From: Thermoplasmatota archaeon
GTDB taxonomy: Archaea; Thermoplasmatota; Thermoplasmata; UBA10834
DNA: 64,000 nt
Direction of reading: 5' to 3'
NCBI GenBank assembly: GCA_040751795.1
Contig: JBFMHR010000001.1
Location: 224,001 to 288,000, forward strand
Shown: positions 39,091 to 43,326 of the stretch, piece after piece
Layout of the letters: the number at the start of each line of letters is the position of its first letter
Numbering within the stretch: position 1 is the first letter of the stretch
Notes under the pieces: model-generated
Seen by the model: the letters and a program-made list of their open reading frames with translations, nothing else
Databases searched by the model: none
Told to the model about the DNA's origin: nothing
Translations under genes and position numbers: made by a program

Positions 39091-39187
39091 CGTCCGTCCG
39101 AACGGGATACGTGGAGAAATAGTTGGCGAGCGGGGGGTGGTCGGGCAACAATTAATAGCCGCCACCCGGCTCAGGCTGAGGAGCACG

Positions 39188-39832
39188 ATGCGCCTAGAGG
39201 TCGACCTGCACATCCATTCCCTGCACTCCCCGGACTCCATGTCGAGGCCCGGGAGGATCGTGGGCAGGGCGCGCGAGCTCGGCCTGGCGGCGATAGCGGT
39301 GACGGACCACGGCAGCTGGGACGGGTGGAGGGAGGCCAACGCGGCGTCCGGTGGGGACCCGATCGTGGTCCCCGGTGCCGAGCTGAAGACCTCCAAGGGG
39401 GACCTCCTGGCGCTGTTCGTCGAGGAGCCCGTGCCCGCGACCGACTGGGCGGAGGCGATAGACATGGTCCGCGCCCGCGGCGGGGTCGCGGTCGTCCCCC
39501 ACCCCGCGGAGTCCAGGAGGCTCACCAAGGAGGACATCGCCATGGCCGACGCCCTCGAGGCGTTCAACGCGAAGTGCGGGAGGCGCAGCAACGGGAGGGC
39601 GGCGGCGCTGGCGCGGGAGCTCGGCCTCCCCGGGCTCGCCTCCTCCGACGCCCACATGGTCGCCGCGGTCGGCAACGGCAGGACATCGGTGCCGGAGTTC
39701 CATTCCACGGAGGAGCTGAGGAGGGTGCTCCTGAAGGACCCGGTCATATCGAGGGCGGAGACGACCAACCCGATACTCCACTACGGGAACGCGTCCCTCT
39801 GCTTCGGGCTCAAGGGCGTCTGGAAGAGGTGA
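39188..39832 (+). CDS. PHP-domain phosphoesterase
   Basis: DLHIHS, AVTDH, PHP, SSDAH. Confidence 0.9.
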   Translation: MRLEVDLHIHSLHSPDSMSRPGRIVGRARELGLAAIAVTDHGSWDGWREANAASGGDPIVVPGAELKTSKGDLLALFVEEPVPATDWAEAIDMVRARGGVAVVPHPAESRRLTKEDIAMADALEAFNAKCGRRSNGRAAALARELGLPGLASSDAHMVAAVGNGRTSVPEFHSTEELRRVLLKDPVISRAETTNPILHYGNASLCFGLKGVWKR

Positions 39833-39835
39833 CGG

Positions 39836-40885
39836 CTACCTCGAAGGCCCCTTGGGCCTGCTCAGCTCGGAGAGGTACTGCTCTATCCTCGTGACGCGCT
39901 GGCCGAGGCGCCCCATGTTCTCCCGGACGTCCGCGACAGCCAGGACGACCTCCTTGGAGACGTCGGGCCTGTCCCTGACCCTGGAGACCGACTCCTCGAT
40001 GCCCCTGAGGCGCGCCTCCAGGTCCACTGGCACCTCGCCGGACTGGACCTTGGCGATCCTCTCCTGCAGCTCCGTGAAGCTCTTGTCCATCTTCCTGTCG
40101 GACGAGGAGAGCACCACGGCGAGGCCCTTGCCGACCTTGTCGTCCAGGCTCTTCCCGAACTCGGCCAGGGCCTTGTTTATCGACTGCTCCAGGGCCTCCA
40201 GCCTCTGGTCCTGGGACTCGACCCGCTTTATGACGTCGGAGAGGTCCCCGAGCTCGAGGCACATCTTCTCCAGGAGCGCCTTCTCCTTCTGGTCGATGTT
40301 GACCTCGACCGGGGCGGTGGGGTAGTTCCTCAGCGCGTCGACCATGCCCAGCATGTCGATCTCGGGGCCGGAGTCGGCTATCGCGTCCTTTATCGGCTTG
40401 AGCTTCTCGAGCTGGAGCTCCGCCATCTTCACGACGCTCCTGTTGCCCTTCCCCATGCCCGTGAGCTCCTCGAGTATCTTCTCGAGCTGCACGACCGCCT
40501 TGGCCATGCTTGAGTCCTCGAGCGAGCGTATGTCCCTGACCGCGTCCTTCTTCCCCTTCGCTATCGCGTCGGCGACCGTCGGGCCCTCGTGGGCGTAGAC
40601 CGTCACGAGGTGCGACACCCCCGACATGACCGCGCCCTCTACGAAGGCCCAGTCCTTCTCCTGAACGGTTATGGTCTGCCTGTCCGCGCGCTCGAAGAGC
40701 ATCACGAAGGACTGGTTGGGCATGAGGCAGACCTGTATGCTGTAGGGGGCGTTGCGCGCGAGCGGGGGCACGTGCTCGGGCTTCTCTCGCTCGACCGCGT
40801 TCGCGTACGCGCCCATGTAGGCGCCGGCGTAGTTCTCCAAGGCCTTCTTCGAGGGGAGGTGGGCCTTCGCTGAGGTGTCTTCCAT
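39836..40885 (-). CDS. Hypothetical protein with long C-terminal coiled coil
   Basis: 349-aa ORF with strong coding bias; heptad-rich second half; no recognised family motif. Confidence 0.8.
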   Translation of the reverse strand: MEDTSAKAHLPSKKALENYAGAYMGAYANAVEREKPEHVPPLARNAPYSIQVCLMPNQSFVMLFERADRQTITVQEKDWAFVEGAVMSGVSHLVTVYAHEGPTVADAIAKGKKDAVRDIRSLEDSSMAKAVVQLEKILEELTGMGKGNRSVVKMAELQLEKLKPIKDAIADSGPEIDMLGMVDALRNYPTAPVEVNIDQKEKALLEKMCLELGDLSDVIKRVESQDQRLEALEQSINKALAEFGKSLDDKVGKGLAVVLSSSDRKMDKSFTELQERIAKVQSGEVPVDLEARLRGIEESVSRVRDRPDVSKEVVLAVADVRENMGRLGQRVTRIEQYLSELSRPKGPSR

Positions 40886-41064
40886 CCGGCTCGCCCAGGT
40901 GATGTTGGTCGCCGATATTAGCCTTTTTCATCCCGCTAGCGGGAGGCGGCGCCGTCTTTTATCTCGGAATCGGAAAATATTATGTACGCAGGGGTTAATC
41001 GGCCCTATCACGGCTGGGCGGGGCAGGCCGCCCGCTCTGGCCGGGTCAGTCAGCTGGTGGTCGT

Positions 41065-41880
41065 CTGAGCATAATCCAGTCAAAGAGGTACATCAAGAAG
41101 ATATCCCTCGTCGGGGACTCCGGCGTGGGCAAGACATCCCTCATCAGGAGGTTCGTGATAGACGTCTTCGACGACAAGTACGTCCAGACCGTCGGGACCA
41201 AGGTCAGCAAGAGGGACGTCGAGTACGAGCTGCCGGACAAGACGGTCTACCTCACCCTCATGGTCTGGGACATCCTGGGCCAGAAGGACTACAGGAAGAT
41301 GAGGGCCCAGGGGATGAGCGGCTCCCACGGCGTCGTGCTCGTCGGGGACCTCACCAGGCCCGAAACAGTCAAGGCGATAGAGGACTTCTGGCTCTCCGAC
41401 GTCGTAGACATACTGGGGACCGTGCCCATAGTGTTCGTGGGCAACAAGGTCGACCTCGTCGACAGGGACTGCGCGGCGGCCCGGCACATCGCGGAGATAG
41501 GCAGGAAGGCCGAGATGCCCGTGATGATGTGCAGCGCCAAGACACGCGAGAACGTGGAGGAGCTGTTCCGGCGGATAGGGGAGATGATGATCTCCGGCGA
41601 CTTCGTCGAGAAGAAGCCCGTCTTCGAGGGCGGCTCCCTCGCGCAGGCGGTGGACGAGATCGTGAGCGACTTCTGCGAGCAGTACGGCGACACGGCCAGG
41701 GCCATGGAGCTCGTCGAGCGCGAGTTCGGGAGGGCCAAGGTCAACATAGGCAAGCCGACGAAGGACAGCCTCCTGATGGCCATCGAGTACCTCTCCGACG
41801 TCGAGAGGGACGTCCACGGGAGGGACGTCTCCGAGGTCAACAAACTCAGGCGCTGGAAGATGATCGACGAGGCGAGGTAG
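41065..41880 (+). CDS. Ras-superfamily (Rab-like) small GTPase with about 90-aa helical C-terminal extension
   Basis: G1 GDSGVGKTS, G2 YVQTVG, G3 WDILGQ, G4 GNKVDL, G5 CSAK. The track start (GTG 41125) lies inside the P-loop, so the start is placed at CTG 41065 after GGTGG. Confidence 0.9.
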   Translation: MSIIQSKRYIKKISLVGDSGVGKTSLIRRFVIDVFDDKYVQTVGTKVSKRDVEYELPDKTVYLTLMVWDILGQKDYRKMRAQGMSGSHGVVLVGDLTRPETVKAIEDFWLSDVVDILGTVPIVFVGNKVDLVDRDCAAARHIAEIGRKAEMPVMMCSAKTRENVEELFRRIGEMMISGDFVEKKPVFEGGSLAQAVDEIVSDFCEQYGDTARAMELVEREFGRAKVNIGKPTKDSLLMAIEYLSDVERDVHGRDVSEVNKLRRWKMIDEAR

Positions 41881-41917
41881 GCCCGGGCGGTGCGTGACCC
41901 CATTGGCCCAGGCGCAG

Positions 41918-42514
41918 ATGAGGAGGAAGAGGCTGGAGATCGCCCTCCAGAAGCTCAGGCCCCTCGAGGAGAGGTCGGCGAGGCTGGAGCAGTACCACAC
42001 CCCGGCGCACATCGCCGCCGACGTCCTGTGGGAGGCCTTCGGGCGCGGGGACGTCCACGGGAGGGCCGTGGCCGACCTCGGCTGCGGGAACGGCGTGTTC
42101 TGCATAGGCGCGAAGCTCATGGGGGCCGACAGGGCCGTGGGCATAGACGTGGACCCGAAGGCGGTGAGGGTCGCCGCGGCGAACGCAGCCGACCTCGGGG
42201 TCGAGGTGGAGCTCTTGGAGGGGGACGTGTCCTCCCTCGCGGGGCCGTTCGACACCGTACTGCAGAACCCCCCCTTCGGGGCGCAGACCCGCCACGCGGA
42301 CCGGGCGTTCATAGAGAAGGCCCTGTCCCTCGCCCCGGTGGCCTATTCCCTTCACAACGACGGCACCCAGGGGTTCGTGGAGGGCATGGTCAGGGCCCTC
42401 GGCGGGCGGTCGGAGGCCGTGAAAAGGTATAAATTCGAGATTCCATATGCGTTCGAGTTCCACAGAAAGGCTAACGAGACCATTTCAGTCGTTCTGTTAA
42501 GGCTTGAGAGATAG
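41918..42514 (+). CDS. METTL5-family N6-adenine RNA methyltransferase
   Basis: LEQYHTPAHIAA, DLGCGNG, NPPFG, FEFH. Confidence 0.9.
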   Translation: MRRKRLEIALQKLRPLEERSARLEQYHTPAHIAADVLWEAFGRGDVHGRAVADLGCGNGVFCIGAKLMGADRAVGIDVDPKAVRVAAANAADLGVEVELLEGDVSSLAGPFDTVLQNPPFGAQTRHADRAFIEKALSLAPVAYSLHNDGTQGFVEGMVRALGGRSEAVKRYKFEIPYAFEFHRKANETISVVLLRLER

Positions 42515-43102
42515 GTGATTGGTCTGGCGAGAACCGGCCGCAGGGTGCTGCCTGGAGACGAGGTGGCCATTGCTGAGGAGTACATGTCGGGAGAGGGCAC
42601 ATACGAGTCCGAGGGCAAGATCTACGCGAGCGCCGTCGGCGAGCTCGACCTCGACGCTAGGGAGAAGACCGCAAAGGTGATACTGGACAACCCGCCAGTG
42701 GTCCTGATGGAGGGTGACACCGTGCTCGCGGAGGTCACCGACACCAGGCCCGCGATGGCCATATGCAGCGTCGTGGCCCAGGAGGGGAGGGAGAGACCGG
42801 TGTCGAGCGAGACGCTCGCGTCGGTCCACGTCTCGAAGATCGCTTCCTCTTACGTCGAGGACGCGGGGGATCTCCTCAGGGCGGGGGACCTCATACGGGC
42901 GCAGGTCATACAGGCCGACCCGTCCGTGCAGCTGTCGACGACCGGCCCGCACTTCGGCGTCATAAGGGCGCTCTGCGTGGTCTGCAGGTCCCCCCTCGAG
43001 AGGAGGGGAAGGGACCTGTGGTGCAAGCGCTGCGAGCACAAGGAGACCCGCAAGCTGGCCGACGACTACAGGGACTACGACATGTCCAAGGGAAAGCCCT
43101 AA
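42515..43102 (+). CDS. csl4: Exosome complex RNA-binding protein Csl4
   Basis: VLPGDEV..EEYMSGEGTYE, S1 domain (GDLIRAQV), zinc ribbon CxxC...CxxC, ETRKLA. True start may be CTG 42524. Confidence 0.93.
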   Translation: MIGLARTGRRVLPGDEVAIAEEYMSGEGTYESEGKIYASAVGELDLDAREKTAKVILDNPPVVLMEGDTVLAEVTDTRPAMAICSVVAQEGRERPVSSETLASVHVSKIASSYVEDAGDLLRAGDLIRAQVIQADPSVQLSTTGPHFGVIRALCVVCRSPLERRGRDLWCKRCEHKETRKLADDYRDYDMSKGKP

Positions 43103-43146
43103 ATCCGCGCACGCTGATTGAGTCGGACAGGGAGGGGAGGCAGCGA

Positions 43147-43326
43147 TTGACCCAAGGTGAGAAGGAGCTCATTGCCGAGGTGGCGAAGCTCAGGGAGGAC
43201 CTGAGGGAGCTGCGGGAGATCGTGAACGTGCTCGTCAACGTCATAATGGAGGACGAGCTCGAGGAGGAGGAGCAGGAGTTCACGCCCTTCTCCGGGACCG
43301 ACAACAAGTTCAACCTCTACAACTGA
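43147..43326 (+). CDS. Small coiled-coil acidic protein (59 aa)
   Basis: GGAGG SD then TTG; LTQGEKELIAEVAKLREDLRELREIVNVLVNVIMEDELEEEEQEF...FNLYN. Confidence 0.75.
   Translation: MTQGEKELIAEVAKLREDLRELREIVNVLVNVIMEDELEEEEQEFTPFSGTDNKFNLYN

What the first reader, a model, noticed from the sequence alone, without database searches (positions are those of the whole stretch)
39836..41880. Rab-like small GTPase paired divergently with an orphan coiled-coil protein
Seen: complete G1-G5 with Rab-like context (KKISLVGDSGVGKTSL..RFV.DVF...YVQTVG, LTLMVWDILGQ, GNKVDL, CSAK...NVEELF), no CAAX or LRR/COR domain, and an extra ~90-aa helical C-terminal domain. It shares about 180 bp of divergent intergenic DNA with a 349-aa gene that has an alpha/beta N-terminus and a long coiled coil. 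Known: Rab/Ras-like GTPases are best described in eukaryotes and Asgard archaea, prokaryotic ones usually sit next to roadblock/MglB genes (none adjacent here), and Rab effectors are often coiled coils. Inference: an undescribed GTPase switch plus effector/scaffold module in a non-Asgard archaeon.
Basis: partly seen in the sequence, partly recalled or inferred. Interest (0 to 1): 0.75.

Follow-up and report, generated by a model that had tools for sequence, protein, structure and literature searches.

The report
Ras-like GTPase with coiled-coil neighbour
An uncultured Thermoplasmata archaeon carries an intact Ras/Rab-like GTP switch with an unusual extra tail domain next to a coiled-coil protein whose sister genes sit beside the swimming-motor (archaellum) genes, so the two may form a control module, but nothing yet shows that they work together.

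Summary
The GTPase is 41065-41880 (+), 271 aa. Pfam Ras scores 1.1e-33, and the best solved relatives are Thorarchaeota Rab, Ypt1 and Rab1. It has no ATG, GTG or TTG start. Homologs and a conserved Shine-Dalgarno-like motif point to CTG at 41065. Its 86-aa C-terminal four-helix domain has no Pfam or PDB match and occurs almost only behind Ras-like G domains of Thermoplasmatota.

The 349-aa neighbour (39836-40885, -) is not an orphan. It is one of three paralogs per genome (CC1-CC3) in an unnamed family.

The divergent adjacency is kept in 21 of 24 same-family genomes, but as the edge of a larger syntenic block. The new lead is this. In the sister family the single pre-duplication CC gene and the GTPase ortholog bracket an archaellum operon (G026) or its remnant (G025, G027). 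In the window's family, paralog CC2 lies about 2.2-2.4 kb from archaellum genes in 12 of 12 genomes. The window's genome shows no archaellum genes yet keeps the pair.

A switch-plus-scaffold module descended from a motility locus is my preferred reading (about 0.4). Unrelated neighbours is nearly as likely. Binding is untested. MglA and Roco membership fail.

The parts
41065..41880 (+). Long-form Ras/Rab-like small GTPase ('GTPase1'), 271 aa, with a TAG stop at 41878-41880
   Evidence: Pfam Ras 1.1e-33. TIGR00231 small_GTP 2e-18. Best PDB sequence hits are Thorarchaeota Rab 7ezb at 1.5e-22, then Ypt1 and Rab1. 538 homologs at E<=1e-3. Stop codon read.
41065..41067 (+). Probable CTG initiation codon
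   Evidence: In 18 distinct loci the aligned start position is ATG (3), GTG (3), TTG (3) or CTG (9). None of the 9 CTG loci has an in-frame ATG, GTG or TTG upstream before the stop. Homolog proteins begin M-SIIQSKRYIKK at this position.
41056..41061 (+). Shine-Dalgarno-like GGTGGT ending 3 nt before the CTG
   Evidence: GGTGGT or GGTGAT lies in the 12 nt upstream of the aligned start in 16 of 18 loci. Position. That it pairs with the 3' end of 16S rRNA is recalled, not tested.
41077..41604 (+). G domain (res 5-180): G1 at 41113-41136, G3 WDILGQ at 41266-41283, G4 NKVD at 41443-41454, G5 SAK at 41533-41541
   Evidence: Invariant columns in 81 sequences. The AF2 model shows a Ras fold. VIA-align 2 gives Rab3C Z 20.0 (rmsd 2.9, 163 aligned), RhoA 19.9, Rab23 19.8, and MglA only Z 14.1 at rank 50.
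41620..41877 (+). Family-specific C-terminal four-helix domain (res 186-271; DFCEQYGD ... AIEYLSDVERDVHGRDVSEVNKLRRWKMIDEA)
   Evidence: More conserved than the G domain. Helices at 192-207, 210-223, 233-251 and 253-269, block pLDDT 80-93. No Pfam hit. No PDB sequence hit better than E 0.2. Only 60 cluster representatives at E<=1e-3 among 1.84 billion. Shared with paralogs and with class-level long forms.
40886..41064 (.). 179-bp divergent intergenic region with two conserved AT-rich promoter-like motifs: GATATTAGCCTTTTTCAT at 40914-40931 (CC side) and GGAAAATATTATGTA at 40972-40986 (GTPase side)
   Evidence: By eye, variants of both motifs recur in most of the 12 same-family intergenic regions printed; I made no motif count. 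Positions. The CC-side motif is in frame with CC in some genomes and out of frame in others, so it is not coding. The promoter role is inferred.
39836..40885 (-). CC1: 349-aa protein with an N-terminal alpha/beta head (res 13-123, nt 40517-40849) and a long helical or coiled-coil region (83-residue helix at res 199-281, nt 40043-40291)
   Evidence: 167 homologs at E<=1e-3; of the 120 listed, 115 have no precomputed Pfam family. AF2 mean pLDDT 75.3. Invariant H99, E100, K112, D114, R117 and R120 in the head. Forms the CC1 clade in the family tree.
41894..43102 (+). Context: a class-I methyltransferase (41894-42514) starts 13 nt after the GTPase stop and runs straight into exosome Csl4 (42515-43102). 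Probably one transcription unit with the GTPase.
   Evidence: Pfam MTS 5.8e-14 and ECR1_N 2e-12. NCBIfam Csl4 NF034126 1.7e-53. This order is kept in 11 of 11 same-family loci and in G017. Co-transcription is inferred from spacing.

Best explanation
The locus encodes a nucleotide switch and a scaffold that descend from the two ends of an ancestral archaellum (motility) locus and most likely still act in one pathway.

Shown:
- GTPase1 is an intact Ras/Rab-like (Rup-type, DxxGQ) small GTPase of a Thermoplasmatota-specific 'long form'. It carries a conserved 86-aa four-helix C-terminal domain.
- Translation most probably starts at CTG 41065, behind a conserved SD-like motif.
- CC1 is one of three paralogs of a family with a conserved alpha/beta head and a long helical rod.
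- CC1 and CC2 arose by duplication within the window's family.
- CC2 sits next to the archaellum operon. In the sister family the single pre-duplication gene does the same, or sits by the operon's remnant.
- In the sister family the GTPase1 ortholog lies at the other end of that operon, or directly after an ArlC/D/E-like gene.

Inferred:
- GTPase1 cycles between GTP and GDP states. All G motifs and the catalytic Gln73 are present.
- The GTP state, through the switch regions and/or the C-terminal domain, engages partners that organise a cell-envelope or polar machine. CC1 would serve as the elongated scaffold or adaptor.
- This would work in the manner of MglA with its coiled-coil or TPR effectors, though the proteins are not homologous to those.
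- The window's organism shows no archaellum genes, so the pair must now serve another target, for example the pilus-like ATPase system on contig C23, or a general polarity or assembly role.

Direct binding is not shown.
For: - Intact GTPase.
- CTG start.
- Co-occurrence: strong orthologs of both proteins are in 24 of 24 f1 and 3 of 3 f2 genomes.
- Adjacency: divergently adjacent, with about 160-310 bp between HSP ends, in 21 of 24 f1 relatives (coordinates). The three exceptions are a contig break (G010), a 100-N scaffold gap directly upstream of the GTPase fragment (G017) and a 67%-complete genome (G016).
- Sister family f2: G025 and G027 read CC | HTH_20 | FlaC_arch+Arch_fla_DE protein (PF04659 1.5e-19) | GTPase1 within 2.5 kb.
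- G026 reads CC | 2 HTH | archaellins, Arch_fla_DE, KaiC-like ArlH, 2 ArlI-like, ArlJ-like | X.
- Contig join in G026: residues 1-334 of X (G020 copy) match the very end of G026 contig C22, and residues 348-1032 match the start of contig C1, directly upstream of GTPase1. So CC and GTPase1 bracket the operon there.
- Trees: f2 CC is sister to CC1+CC2 (SH-aLRT 95). The f2 GTPases are orthologs of GTPase1 (94).
- CC2 lies 2.2-2.4 kb from a PF04659 gene in 12 of 12 f1 genomes that appear in both searches.
- CC2 was found in 5 of the 13 f1 genomes without a PF04659 hit, against 12 of 12 with one. This partial co-loss ties the CC family to the archaellum.
- The left flank of CC1 varies: PHP is adjacent in 5 of 11 loci. 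CC1 nevertheless always stays with GTPase1.
Against: - The whole right-hand block is syntenic in 11 of 11 f1 loci. MTase-Csl4 also follows GTPase1 in f2 genome G026, after an inserted giant gene. So the linkage may be plain inherited gene order.
- None of 20 loci of other CC-family members has a GTPase in the stretch fetched.
- None of 12 loci of other GTPase-family members has a CC, arl or Roadblock gene.
- None of the 13 distant CC loci, 4 CC3 loci or the window genome's CC2 locus has arl genes.
- Long-form GTPases exist where no CC homolog was found: G028, G029, G037. The C-terminal domain therefore cannot be a CC-binding domain in general.
- Both genes are kept in archaellum-less lineages. 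Genus g2 has 0 of 19 genomes with PF04659. The window genome has no PF04659 or PF01917 hit and is 92.8% complete.
- The GTPase-archaellum adjacency rests on three genomes of two genera.
- There are no expression or interaction data.
Confidence: 0.4

Rival explanations
1. The two genes are neighbours by descent only. GTPase1 is a free-standing Ras-like switch with its own unknown partners. CC1 is a diverged paralog of an archaellum-associated protein. They are adjacent because they mark the edge of a stable syntenic block, and because the archaellum genes once between them were moved or deleted.
For: - Block synteny in 11 of 11 f1 loci. The GTPase1 ... MTase-Csl4 order is also kept in f2 genome G026.
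- 0 of 20 other CC-family loci hold a GTPase. 0 of 12 other GTPase loci hold a CC gene.
- Each gene has its own promoter-like motif in the intergenic region.
- In G026 the two genes are about 20 kb apart.
- Long-form GTPases occur without CC homologs.
Against: - The linkage survived three different arrangements across six genera of the order.
- After the CC duplication, one copy stayed with GTPase1 in every f1 genome where the locus is assembled, although the flank on its other side changes.
- Genus g5 keeps CC, HTH, an ArlCDE-like gene and GTPase1 together although archaellin was not found there.
Confidence: 0.37
2. GTPase1 works with the genes it is probably co-transcribed with, the methyltransferase and exosome subunit Csl4. 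It would then act in RNA processing or ribosome-related regulation, and CC1 would be irrelevant to it.
For: - 13 nt lie between the GTPase stop and the MTase start, and the MTase runs straight into Csl4.
- The order GTPase-MTase-Csl4 is kept in 11 of 11 f1 loci and in G017.
- One database ORF (P0245) reads from the GTPase tail into an MTase domain.
Against: - In f2 a 1707-1894-aa gene on the opposite strand separates GTPase1 from MTase-Csl4 (G026) or follows GTPase1 (G025).
- No MTase or Csl4 lies near 12 other GTPase-family loci.
- From general knowledge, not tested here: RNA and ribosome GTPases belong to other classes (Era, Obg, HflX), and the MTase-Csl4 pair is widespread in archaea without a GTPase.
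Confidence: 0.1
3. CC1 is the regulator (GAP or GEF) of GTPase1 rather than its effector. Its conserved N-terminal alpha/beta head, with invariant His99, Glu100, Lys112, Asp114, Arg117 and Arg120, would replace the missing Roadblock/MglB partner.
For: - The head is highly conserved, with invariant charged residues including two arginines.
- No Roadblock gene is adjacent.
- Per passages of PMC4316618, Ras-type GTPases normally need an external arginine finger.
Against: - No Pfam hit to Robl_LC7 or any GAP or GEF family.
- The order of secondary-structure elements in the model is a-b-b-b-a-b-a. That is not the Roadblock order as I recall it.
- CC paralogs with the same head are not next to GTPases.
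Confidence: 0.08

Closest known systems
Eukaryotic Rab/Ypt GTPases and the solved 'Thorarchaeota Rab' (PDB 7ezb)
   Same: These are the best sequence matches among solved structures: 7ezb 1.5e-22, Ypt1 2.5e-22, Rab1 about 7e-22. They are also the best fold matches: Rab3C Z 20.0, Rab23 19.8, Sec4 19.2. The protein shares the GDSGVGKT P-loop, DxxGQ, NKxD and SAK motifs.
   Different: There is no C-terminal Cys or prenylation motif. The switch II and RabF-type motifs are only partly alike by eye, against motif definitions that I recall. An 86-aa folded C-terminal domain replaces the flexible hypervariable tail. Its position in a tree with eukaryotic Rabs was not tested.
Prokaryotic Rup family (Wuichet and Sogaard-Andersen 2014, PMC4316618)
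   Same: A Ras-like DxxGQ G domain that is not coupled to an MglB/Roadblock gene. The G domain is 34-43% identical to short GTPases of Chloroflexota (7 of the 80 loci kept), a phylum that the paper lists for Rup group 1 (passage).
   Different: That study dropped sequences longer than 240 aa (passage), so this 271-aa form would have been excluded. The C-terminal domain and the Thermoplasmata clade do not appear in the passages I read.
MglA-MglB polarity switch of Myxococcus and Thermus
   Same: A small Ras-superfamily GTPase genetically linked to a type-IV-filament motility machine. It is the functional analogy for the proposed mechanism.
   Different: G3 is WDILGQ, not TVPGQ or GTPGQ. No Roadblock gene lies within four genes. 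The fold match to MglA is weaker (Z 14.1 against 20). The protein is not a member of this family.
Rab-like proteins reported in Thermoplasmatales archaeon and Aciduliprofundum (Surkont and Pereira-Leal 2016, PMC4915359)
   Same: Rab-like GTPases outside Asgard, in the same phylum and without prenylation sites (passages).
   Different: That paper stresses the absence of any extended C-terminal region. This family has a conserved folded one. Whether the paper's two sequences are short-form paralogs was not checked.
Archaellum accessory proteins ArlC/D/E (FlaC/D/E)
   Same: They are encoded in the same ancestral locus. An ArlCDE-like gene lies between CC and GTPase1 in G025 and G027. Like FlaC, CC1 is helical or coiled-coil.
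   Different: CC1 has no PF04659 or PF05377 match, and its N-terminal head is unlike them. It is not a member.

Membership tests
Ras superfamily small GTPase (Pfam PF00071 / TIGR00231) | G1 GxxxxGK[ST], G2 Thr, G3 DxxGQ, G4 [NT]KxD, G5 SA[KL], scoring above the curated cut-off | tested here: met
   PF00071 116.5 bits against a cut-off of 21.6. TIGR00231 66.7 bits against 42.5. The motifs are invariant in 81 homologs.
Eukaryotic Rab family | C-terminal prenylatable cysteines (CC, CXC or CAAX) | tested here: not met
   The protein ends ...RRWKMIDEAR. No Cys is present in the last 60 residues.
Eukaryotic Rab family | Placement inside the Rab clade, with the five RabF motifs | not tested
   No eukaryotic or Asgard reference sequences could be brought into a tree with these tools. 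The RabF comparison was made by eye against recalled motifs only.
MglA family | G3 TVPGQ (group 1) or GTPGQ (groups 2-5), per PMC4316618 | tested here: not met
   G3 is WDILGQ. The motif definition comes from a passage read.
MglA family | An MglB/Roadblock gene within about four genes | tested here: not met
   The only PF03259 genes of the genome are at C34:10251-10598 and C34:195954-196217. The window is on C1.
Rup family (Ras-like, prokaryotic, not MglB-coupled) | Falls in the non-MglA clade of prokaryotic small GTPases as a single-domain protein | tested here: inconclusive
   The DxxGQ motif, the lack of MglB coupling and the Chloroflexota relatives fit. No tree with named Rup references was built, and the protein has a second domain.
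Roco (Roc-COR) proteins | A COR domain after the Roc G domain, usually with LRR repeats | tested here: not met
   No COR or LRR family at E<=0.01. Roc scores below Ras, 85.6 against 116.5 bits. The protein has 271 aa.
ArlC/D/E (FlaC_arch PF05377, Arch_fla_DE PF04659) for the coiled-coil protein | Match to the family models | tested here: not met
   Only sub-threshold coiled-coil noise appears (FlgN 0.0033, Baculo_PEP_C 0.0046). The same library finds PF04659 at 1.5e-19 in the neighbouring f2 gene.
Roadblock/LC7 (MglB-like) for the N-terminal head of the coiled-coil protein | Robl_LC7 profile match or Roadblock fold | tested here: inconclusive
   No Pfam match. The fold searches were filled by the coiled-coil part, so the head was barely tested. 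The element order a-b-b-b-a-b-a differs from the Roadblock order as I recall it.

The most novel reading that the evidence does not exclude
GTPase1, with its private C-terminal domain, together with the CC family (and, where retained, the ArlC/D/E-like protein and the HTH regulator) forms a Ras-like-GTPase-controlled assembly or polarity module for the archaellum and related envelope machines in Thermoplasmata. This would be an archaeal, non-homologous counterpart of the bacterial MglA system. The CC proteins would be the so-far unidentified cytoplasmic scaffold at the motor. The module would have been re-used after loss of the archaellum in lineages such as the window's.
Probability: 0.15. 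Interest if true: 0.8.

Novelty: new variant of a known kind. Interest (0 to 1): 0.5.

Why it matters
- Ras-like switches in archaea outside Asgard are almost unstudied. This family adds a conserved, unannotated output domain to the Ras fold and is widespread in Thermoplasmata MAGs.
- The trail from this locus to the archaellum gene cluster gives a concrete, testable idea of what such a switch controls. It also names a candidate family for motor-associated scaffolds.
- The conserved CTG start affects annotation. Gene callers truncate this protein at the P-loop: the 251-aa database entries P0004, P0008 and P0009 start there.
- If the two genes are only neighbours, the finding reduces to a new subfamily of a known superfamily.

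Tried and rejected
- **Co-folding.** GTPase1 (alignment A3) plus GTP, Mg and CC1 (alignment A2) gave 'no answer', with scores 0.00 and 0.00 against a mark of 0.32. The controls were not run. This is no evidence either way.
- **Expression.** No RNA holder was listed for window 39700-42600. There were 20 DNA rows, with a best word share of 0.38. I did not lay reads.
- **Fold of the CC1 head.** Foldseek against PDB found nothing at E<=0.001. VIA wide returned only coiled-coil rows, Z<=7.3, spanning residues 193-343.
- **Fold of the GTPase C-terminal domain.** VIA rows span only the G domain, residues 6-183, so this domain is untested by fold.
- **ESM Atlas.** Both domains gave no usable hit.
- **PDB profile and sequence searches.** The CC family profile scored best at E 0.022, in coiled-coil regions only. 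The C-terminal domain scored best at E 0.2.
- **Co-loss in G017.** I considered that CC1 and half of GTPase1 had been lost together. I rejected this because a 100-N scaffold gap sits exactly there.
- **Upstream ATG for CC1.** I considered that the conserved upstream ATG (40929-40931, minus strand) is the true CC1 start. I rejected this because it is out of frame in the window and in L018.
- **Shared operator.** The 12-nt palindrome CCCGCTAGCGGG (40932-40943) is not conserved in relatives, so I rejected it as a shared operator.
- **V4R-Roadblock pair near CC2.** The pair lies 4-5 kb from CC2 in the window genome and in the 4 other same-family CC2 loci examined. I read this as synteny only.
- **Not done.** A mirror-tree co-evolution test (too weak with 12 related genomes). 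A phylogeny with named Rab, Ras, Rup, MglA and Asgard references (no such sequences could be obtained through the tools).
Full report
**1. What is at the coordinates**

The window is G000:C1:224001-288000, from a 2.05-Mb genome in 53 contigs that is 92.8% complete. GC content is about 65%.

On the plus strand, a frame is open from 40999 to the TAG at 41878-41880. It encodes a small GTPase:
- Pfam Ras PF00071 1.1e-33, Roc 3.9e-24, Arf 1.4e-08.
- NCBIfam small_GTP 2e-18.
- G1 GDSGVGKT, G2 T42, G3 WDILGQ, G4 NKVD and G5 SAK are invariant or nearly invariant across 81 homologs.

On the minus strand, 39836-40885 encodes a 349-aa protein with no Pfam or NCBIfam family above threshold.

Downstream of the GTPase lie a class-I methyltransferase (41894-42514) and exosome Csl4 (42515-43102; NF034126 1.7e-53). 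Beyond the coiled-coil gene lie a convergent PHP-domain gene and a GNAT gene.

**2. The start codon**

The ORF listing starts the GTPase at GTG 41125, which lies inside the P-loop. No ATG, GTG or TTG lies between the upstream TAA (40996-40998) and that GTG.

Homologs begin M-SIIQSKRYIKK. I compared the aligned position in 18 distinct loci:

| Codon | Loci |
|---|---|
| ATG | 3 |
| GTG | 3 |
| TTG | 3 |
| CTG | 9 (the window, seven congeners, and G013 of another genus) |

- None of the nine CTG loci has an in-frame canonical start upstream.
- 16 of the 18 loci carry GGTGGT or GGTGAT in the 12 nt before this codon.

I conclude that the protein starts at CTG 41065, has 271 aa, and lies 179 bp from the divergent gene. 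Database entries of 251 aa (P0004, P0008, P0009) are truncated calls from the internal GTG.

**3. The GTPase family**

- There are 538 database proteins at E<=1e-3. The 120 listed are 67-92% identical. Where sources name them, they come from Thermoplasmata or Thermoplasmatota MAGs.
- The best solved relatives by sequence are Thorarchaeota Rab 7ezb (1.5e-22), Ypt1 and Rab1.
- The AF2 model has mean pLDDT 76.8. It matches Rab3C (Z 20.0, rmsd 2.9, 163 aligned), RhoA (19.9) and Rab23 (19.8). MglA scores Z 14.1 at rank 50.
- G3 is DxxGQ, not the TVPGQ or GTPGQ of MglA (passage of PMC4316618).
- The only two Roadblock genes of the genome are on contig C34.
- No COR or LRR domain is present.

The protein is therefore Ras/Rab-like in the sense of the prokaryotic 'Rup' grouping. 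It is not MglA and not Roco.

In a pattern-limited scan of species-representative genomes, I kept 80 loci. They are titled Thermoplasmata, Methanomassiliicoccales, Methanobacteriota/Euryarchaeota, DHVE2 and Sysuiplasmataceae. Seven are Chloroflexota loci that match the G domain only, at 34-43% identity.

**4. The C-terminal domain**

- Residues 186-271 form four helices with block pLDDT 80-93.
- They are the most conserved part of the protein.
- They are shared with the in-genome paralog GTPase2 (C12:70510-71304, 45% identical) and with long forms from five other families of the class.
- They have no Pfam match and no PDB sequence match better than E 0.2.
- A full HMMER pass over 1.84 billion cluster representatives found only 60 proteins at E<=1e-3. 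The full-size ones (about 265-299 aa) carry the domain at the C-terminus.
- I printed seven of the shorter hits. Four still show the end of a G domain and so are N-terminally cut gene calls. One begins with Met and shows no G domain.
- In the Pfam scan of ten hits, one carries the end of a Ras domain, one reads into a methyltransferase, two are unrelated large proteins, and six have no family.
- In an even sample of the phylum, the domain was found in 9 of 301 genomes, often in several copies.

On prior literature:
- Wuichet and Sogaard-Andersen excluded sequences over 240 aa (passage).
- Surkont and Pereira-Leal noted Rab-like proteins in a Thermoplasmatales archaeon and in Aciduliprofundum, but stressed the lack of a C-terminal extension (passages).
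- I found no paper describing this long form. One search returned 4 papers, one search returned 0, and one search returned 14 of which 12 were listed. I judged these by titles and abstracts, plus the passages named above.

**5. The coiled-coil protein**

- The AF2 model has mean pLDDT 75.3. It shows a head (helix 13-34, strands 48-54, 60-66 and 71-76, helix 79-88, strand 92-96, helix 104-123), then helices including one of 83 residues (199-281).
- The head carries most of the invariant residues, including H99, E100, K112, D114, R117 and R120.
- There are 167 homologs at E<=1e-3.
- The genome has three paralogs: CC1 (this gene), CC2 (C34:4818-6065, 44% identical) and CC3 (C1:16674-17633, 25% identical).
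- In an even class sample, the family profile hit 39 of 201 genomes: f1 22/22, f2 3/3, f5 1/1, f9 7/13, f13 2/2, f18 3/5, and none in the other families.

**6. Is the pairing conserved?**

- Strong orthologs of both genes occur in 24 of 24 same-family (f1) and 3 of 3 sister-family (f2) relatives.
- They are divergently adjacent in 21 of the 24 f1 relatives. The others are a contig break (G010), a 100-N scaffold gap (G017) and a 67%-complete genome (G016).
- The block CC1|GTPase1-MTase-Csl4-SHMT-ThiF-ThiI is syntenic in 11 of 11 f1 loci fetched. Only the flank beyond CC1 varies (PHP adjacent in 5 of 11).
- None of 20 loci holding other CC-family members has a GTPase.
- None of 12 loci holding other GTPase-family members has a CC, Roadblock or arl gene.
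- G028, G029 and G037 have long-form GTPases but no CC-family hit.

On its own, therefore, the adjacency is weak evidence of a functional link.

**7. The archaellum connection**

In the sister family f2:
- In G025 and G027, the genes between CC and GTPase1 are an HTH_20 regulator and a 392-395-aa protein with FlaC_arch and Arch_fla_DE domains (PF04659 1.5e-19).
- In G026, CC lies beside two HTH genes and a full archaellum operon: archaellins, Arch_fla_DE, a KaiC-like ArlH, two ArlI-like genes and one ArlJ-like gene. A large gene X follows the operon.
- Residues 1-334 of X (G020 copy) match the very end of G026 contig C22. Residues 348-1032 match the start of contig C1, directly upstream of GTPase1. 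The two contigs therefore abut, and CC and GTPase1 bracket the operon.
- In G026 GTPase1 is followed by a giant gene on the opposite strand, then by MTase-Csl4.

In the window's family f1:
- It is CC2 that lies 2.2-2.4 kb from a PF04659 gene, in 12 of 12 genomes present in both searches. The layout is the same as in G026 (G020).

Trees:
- f2 CC is sister to CC1+CC2 (SH-aLRT 95). CC3 and the distant homologs fall outside (34 rows, quick search, midpoint root).
- The f2 GTPases group with GTPase1 (94). GTPase2 forms a separate f1+f2 clade (99) (29 rows).

The simplest history is an ancestral locus CC - HTH - arl operon - X - GTPase1 - ... - MTase - Csl4. A CC duplication in f1 then left CC1 beside GTPase1 and CC2 beside the operon.

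Archaellum distribution:
- PF04659 was found in 19 of 49 genomes of the order (f1 16/45, f2 3/3, genus g2 0/19).
- CC2 was found in 12 of 12 f1 genomes with PF04659. Among the 13 without, it was found in 5 (G000, G003, G007, G009, G011).
- The window's genome has no PF04659 or PF01917 hit, and no tblastn hit to ArlB, CDE, F, G, H or J. It has only two ArlI-like ATPase genes on C23.
- Genus g5 lacks archaellin hits but keeps the ArlCDE-like gene between CC and GTPase1.

**8. Reading**

The GTPase is almost certainly a working switch, although no assay supports this. The CC family is tied to the archaellum locus by position and by partial co-loss. GTPase1 is tied to it only in three f2 genomes.

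Both genes persist, well conserved, in lineages without an archaellum. Any shared role must therefore be broader than the motor itself.

| Reading | Confidence |
|---|---|
| Switch-plus-scaffold, same pathway, derived from the motility locus | about 0.4 |
| Neighbours by descent | about 0.37 |
| GTPase acts with MTase/Csl4 | about 0.1 |

Direct binding remains untested. The one co-folding job gave no verdict and is listed under things tried.

**9. Verdict**

- This is a new variant of a known kind: the Ras superfamily with a private C-terminal domain, beside an unnamed protein family.
- Interest is moderate. It rises if the motility link and the pairing are shown at the bench.

Noticed in passing
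window 41053-41067: CTG is the conserved, SD-preceded start codon of the GTPase. Nine of 18 distinct loci have CTG at the aligned start, in two genera. Automatic gene calls truncate the protein to 251 aa, starting inside the P-loop.
   Followed up: yes
window 41881-43102: The GTPase stop is 13 nt from a class-I methyltransferase that runs straight into exosome subunit Csl4. A small conserved ORF (about 43123-43326), SHMT, ThiF and ThiI-like genes follow, in the same order in 10 to 11 of 11 same-family loci.
   Followed up: partly
G000:C34:9773-10598 (L035): A V4R-domain protein (PF02830 2.4e-11) is immediately followed by a Roadblock/LC7 protein (PF03259 3.1e-10), with no GTPase beside them. 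The pair lies 4-5 kb from CC2 in the window genome and in the 4 other same-family CC2 loci examined.
   Followed up: partly
G000:C23:188558-193620: Two tandem ArlI/PilB-like ATPase genes, 33-36% identical to G026 ArlI, in a genome where archaellin, ArlCDE, F, G, H and J were not found. This may be a pilus-like system.
   Followed up: no
G029:C35:12221-18540; L027 2790-4143; L030 1157-2482: Other Thermoplasmata carry tandem arrays of these GTPases. G029 has six long-form matches in 6.3 kb and 41 matches genome-wide. G034 and G037 have a long form directly followed by a short form.
   Followed up: no
L112, L113, L119, L121, L134, L138, L148: Short Ras-like GTPases of Chloroflexota (Anaerolineae, Ca. 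Amarolinea, Caldilineales, Promineifilaceae) are 34-43% identical to the G domain. They are the nearest non-archaeal relatives in the pattern scan.
   Followed up: no
window 40932-40943: A perfect 12-nt palindrome, CCCGCTAGCGGG, sits in the divergent intergenic region. It is not conserved in the relatives' intergenic regions.
   Followed up: partly
G026:C22 end and G026:C1 start (L067, L024): The two contigs of this public assembly carry the two halves of one roughly 1040-aa gene (X) and so are neighbours. In G017 a 100-N scaffold gap hides CC1 and the 5' half of the GTPase.
   Followed up: yes
window 39185-39832 and 39836: A PHP-domain gene (PF13263 1.2e-13) ends 3 nt from the stop of the convergent coiled-coil gene. 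The upstream GNAT gene overlaps the region in which the PHP gene starts.
   Followed up: no
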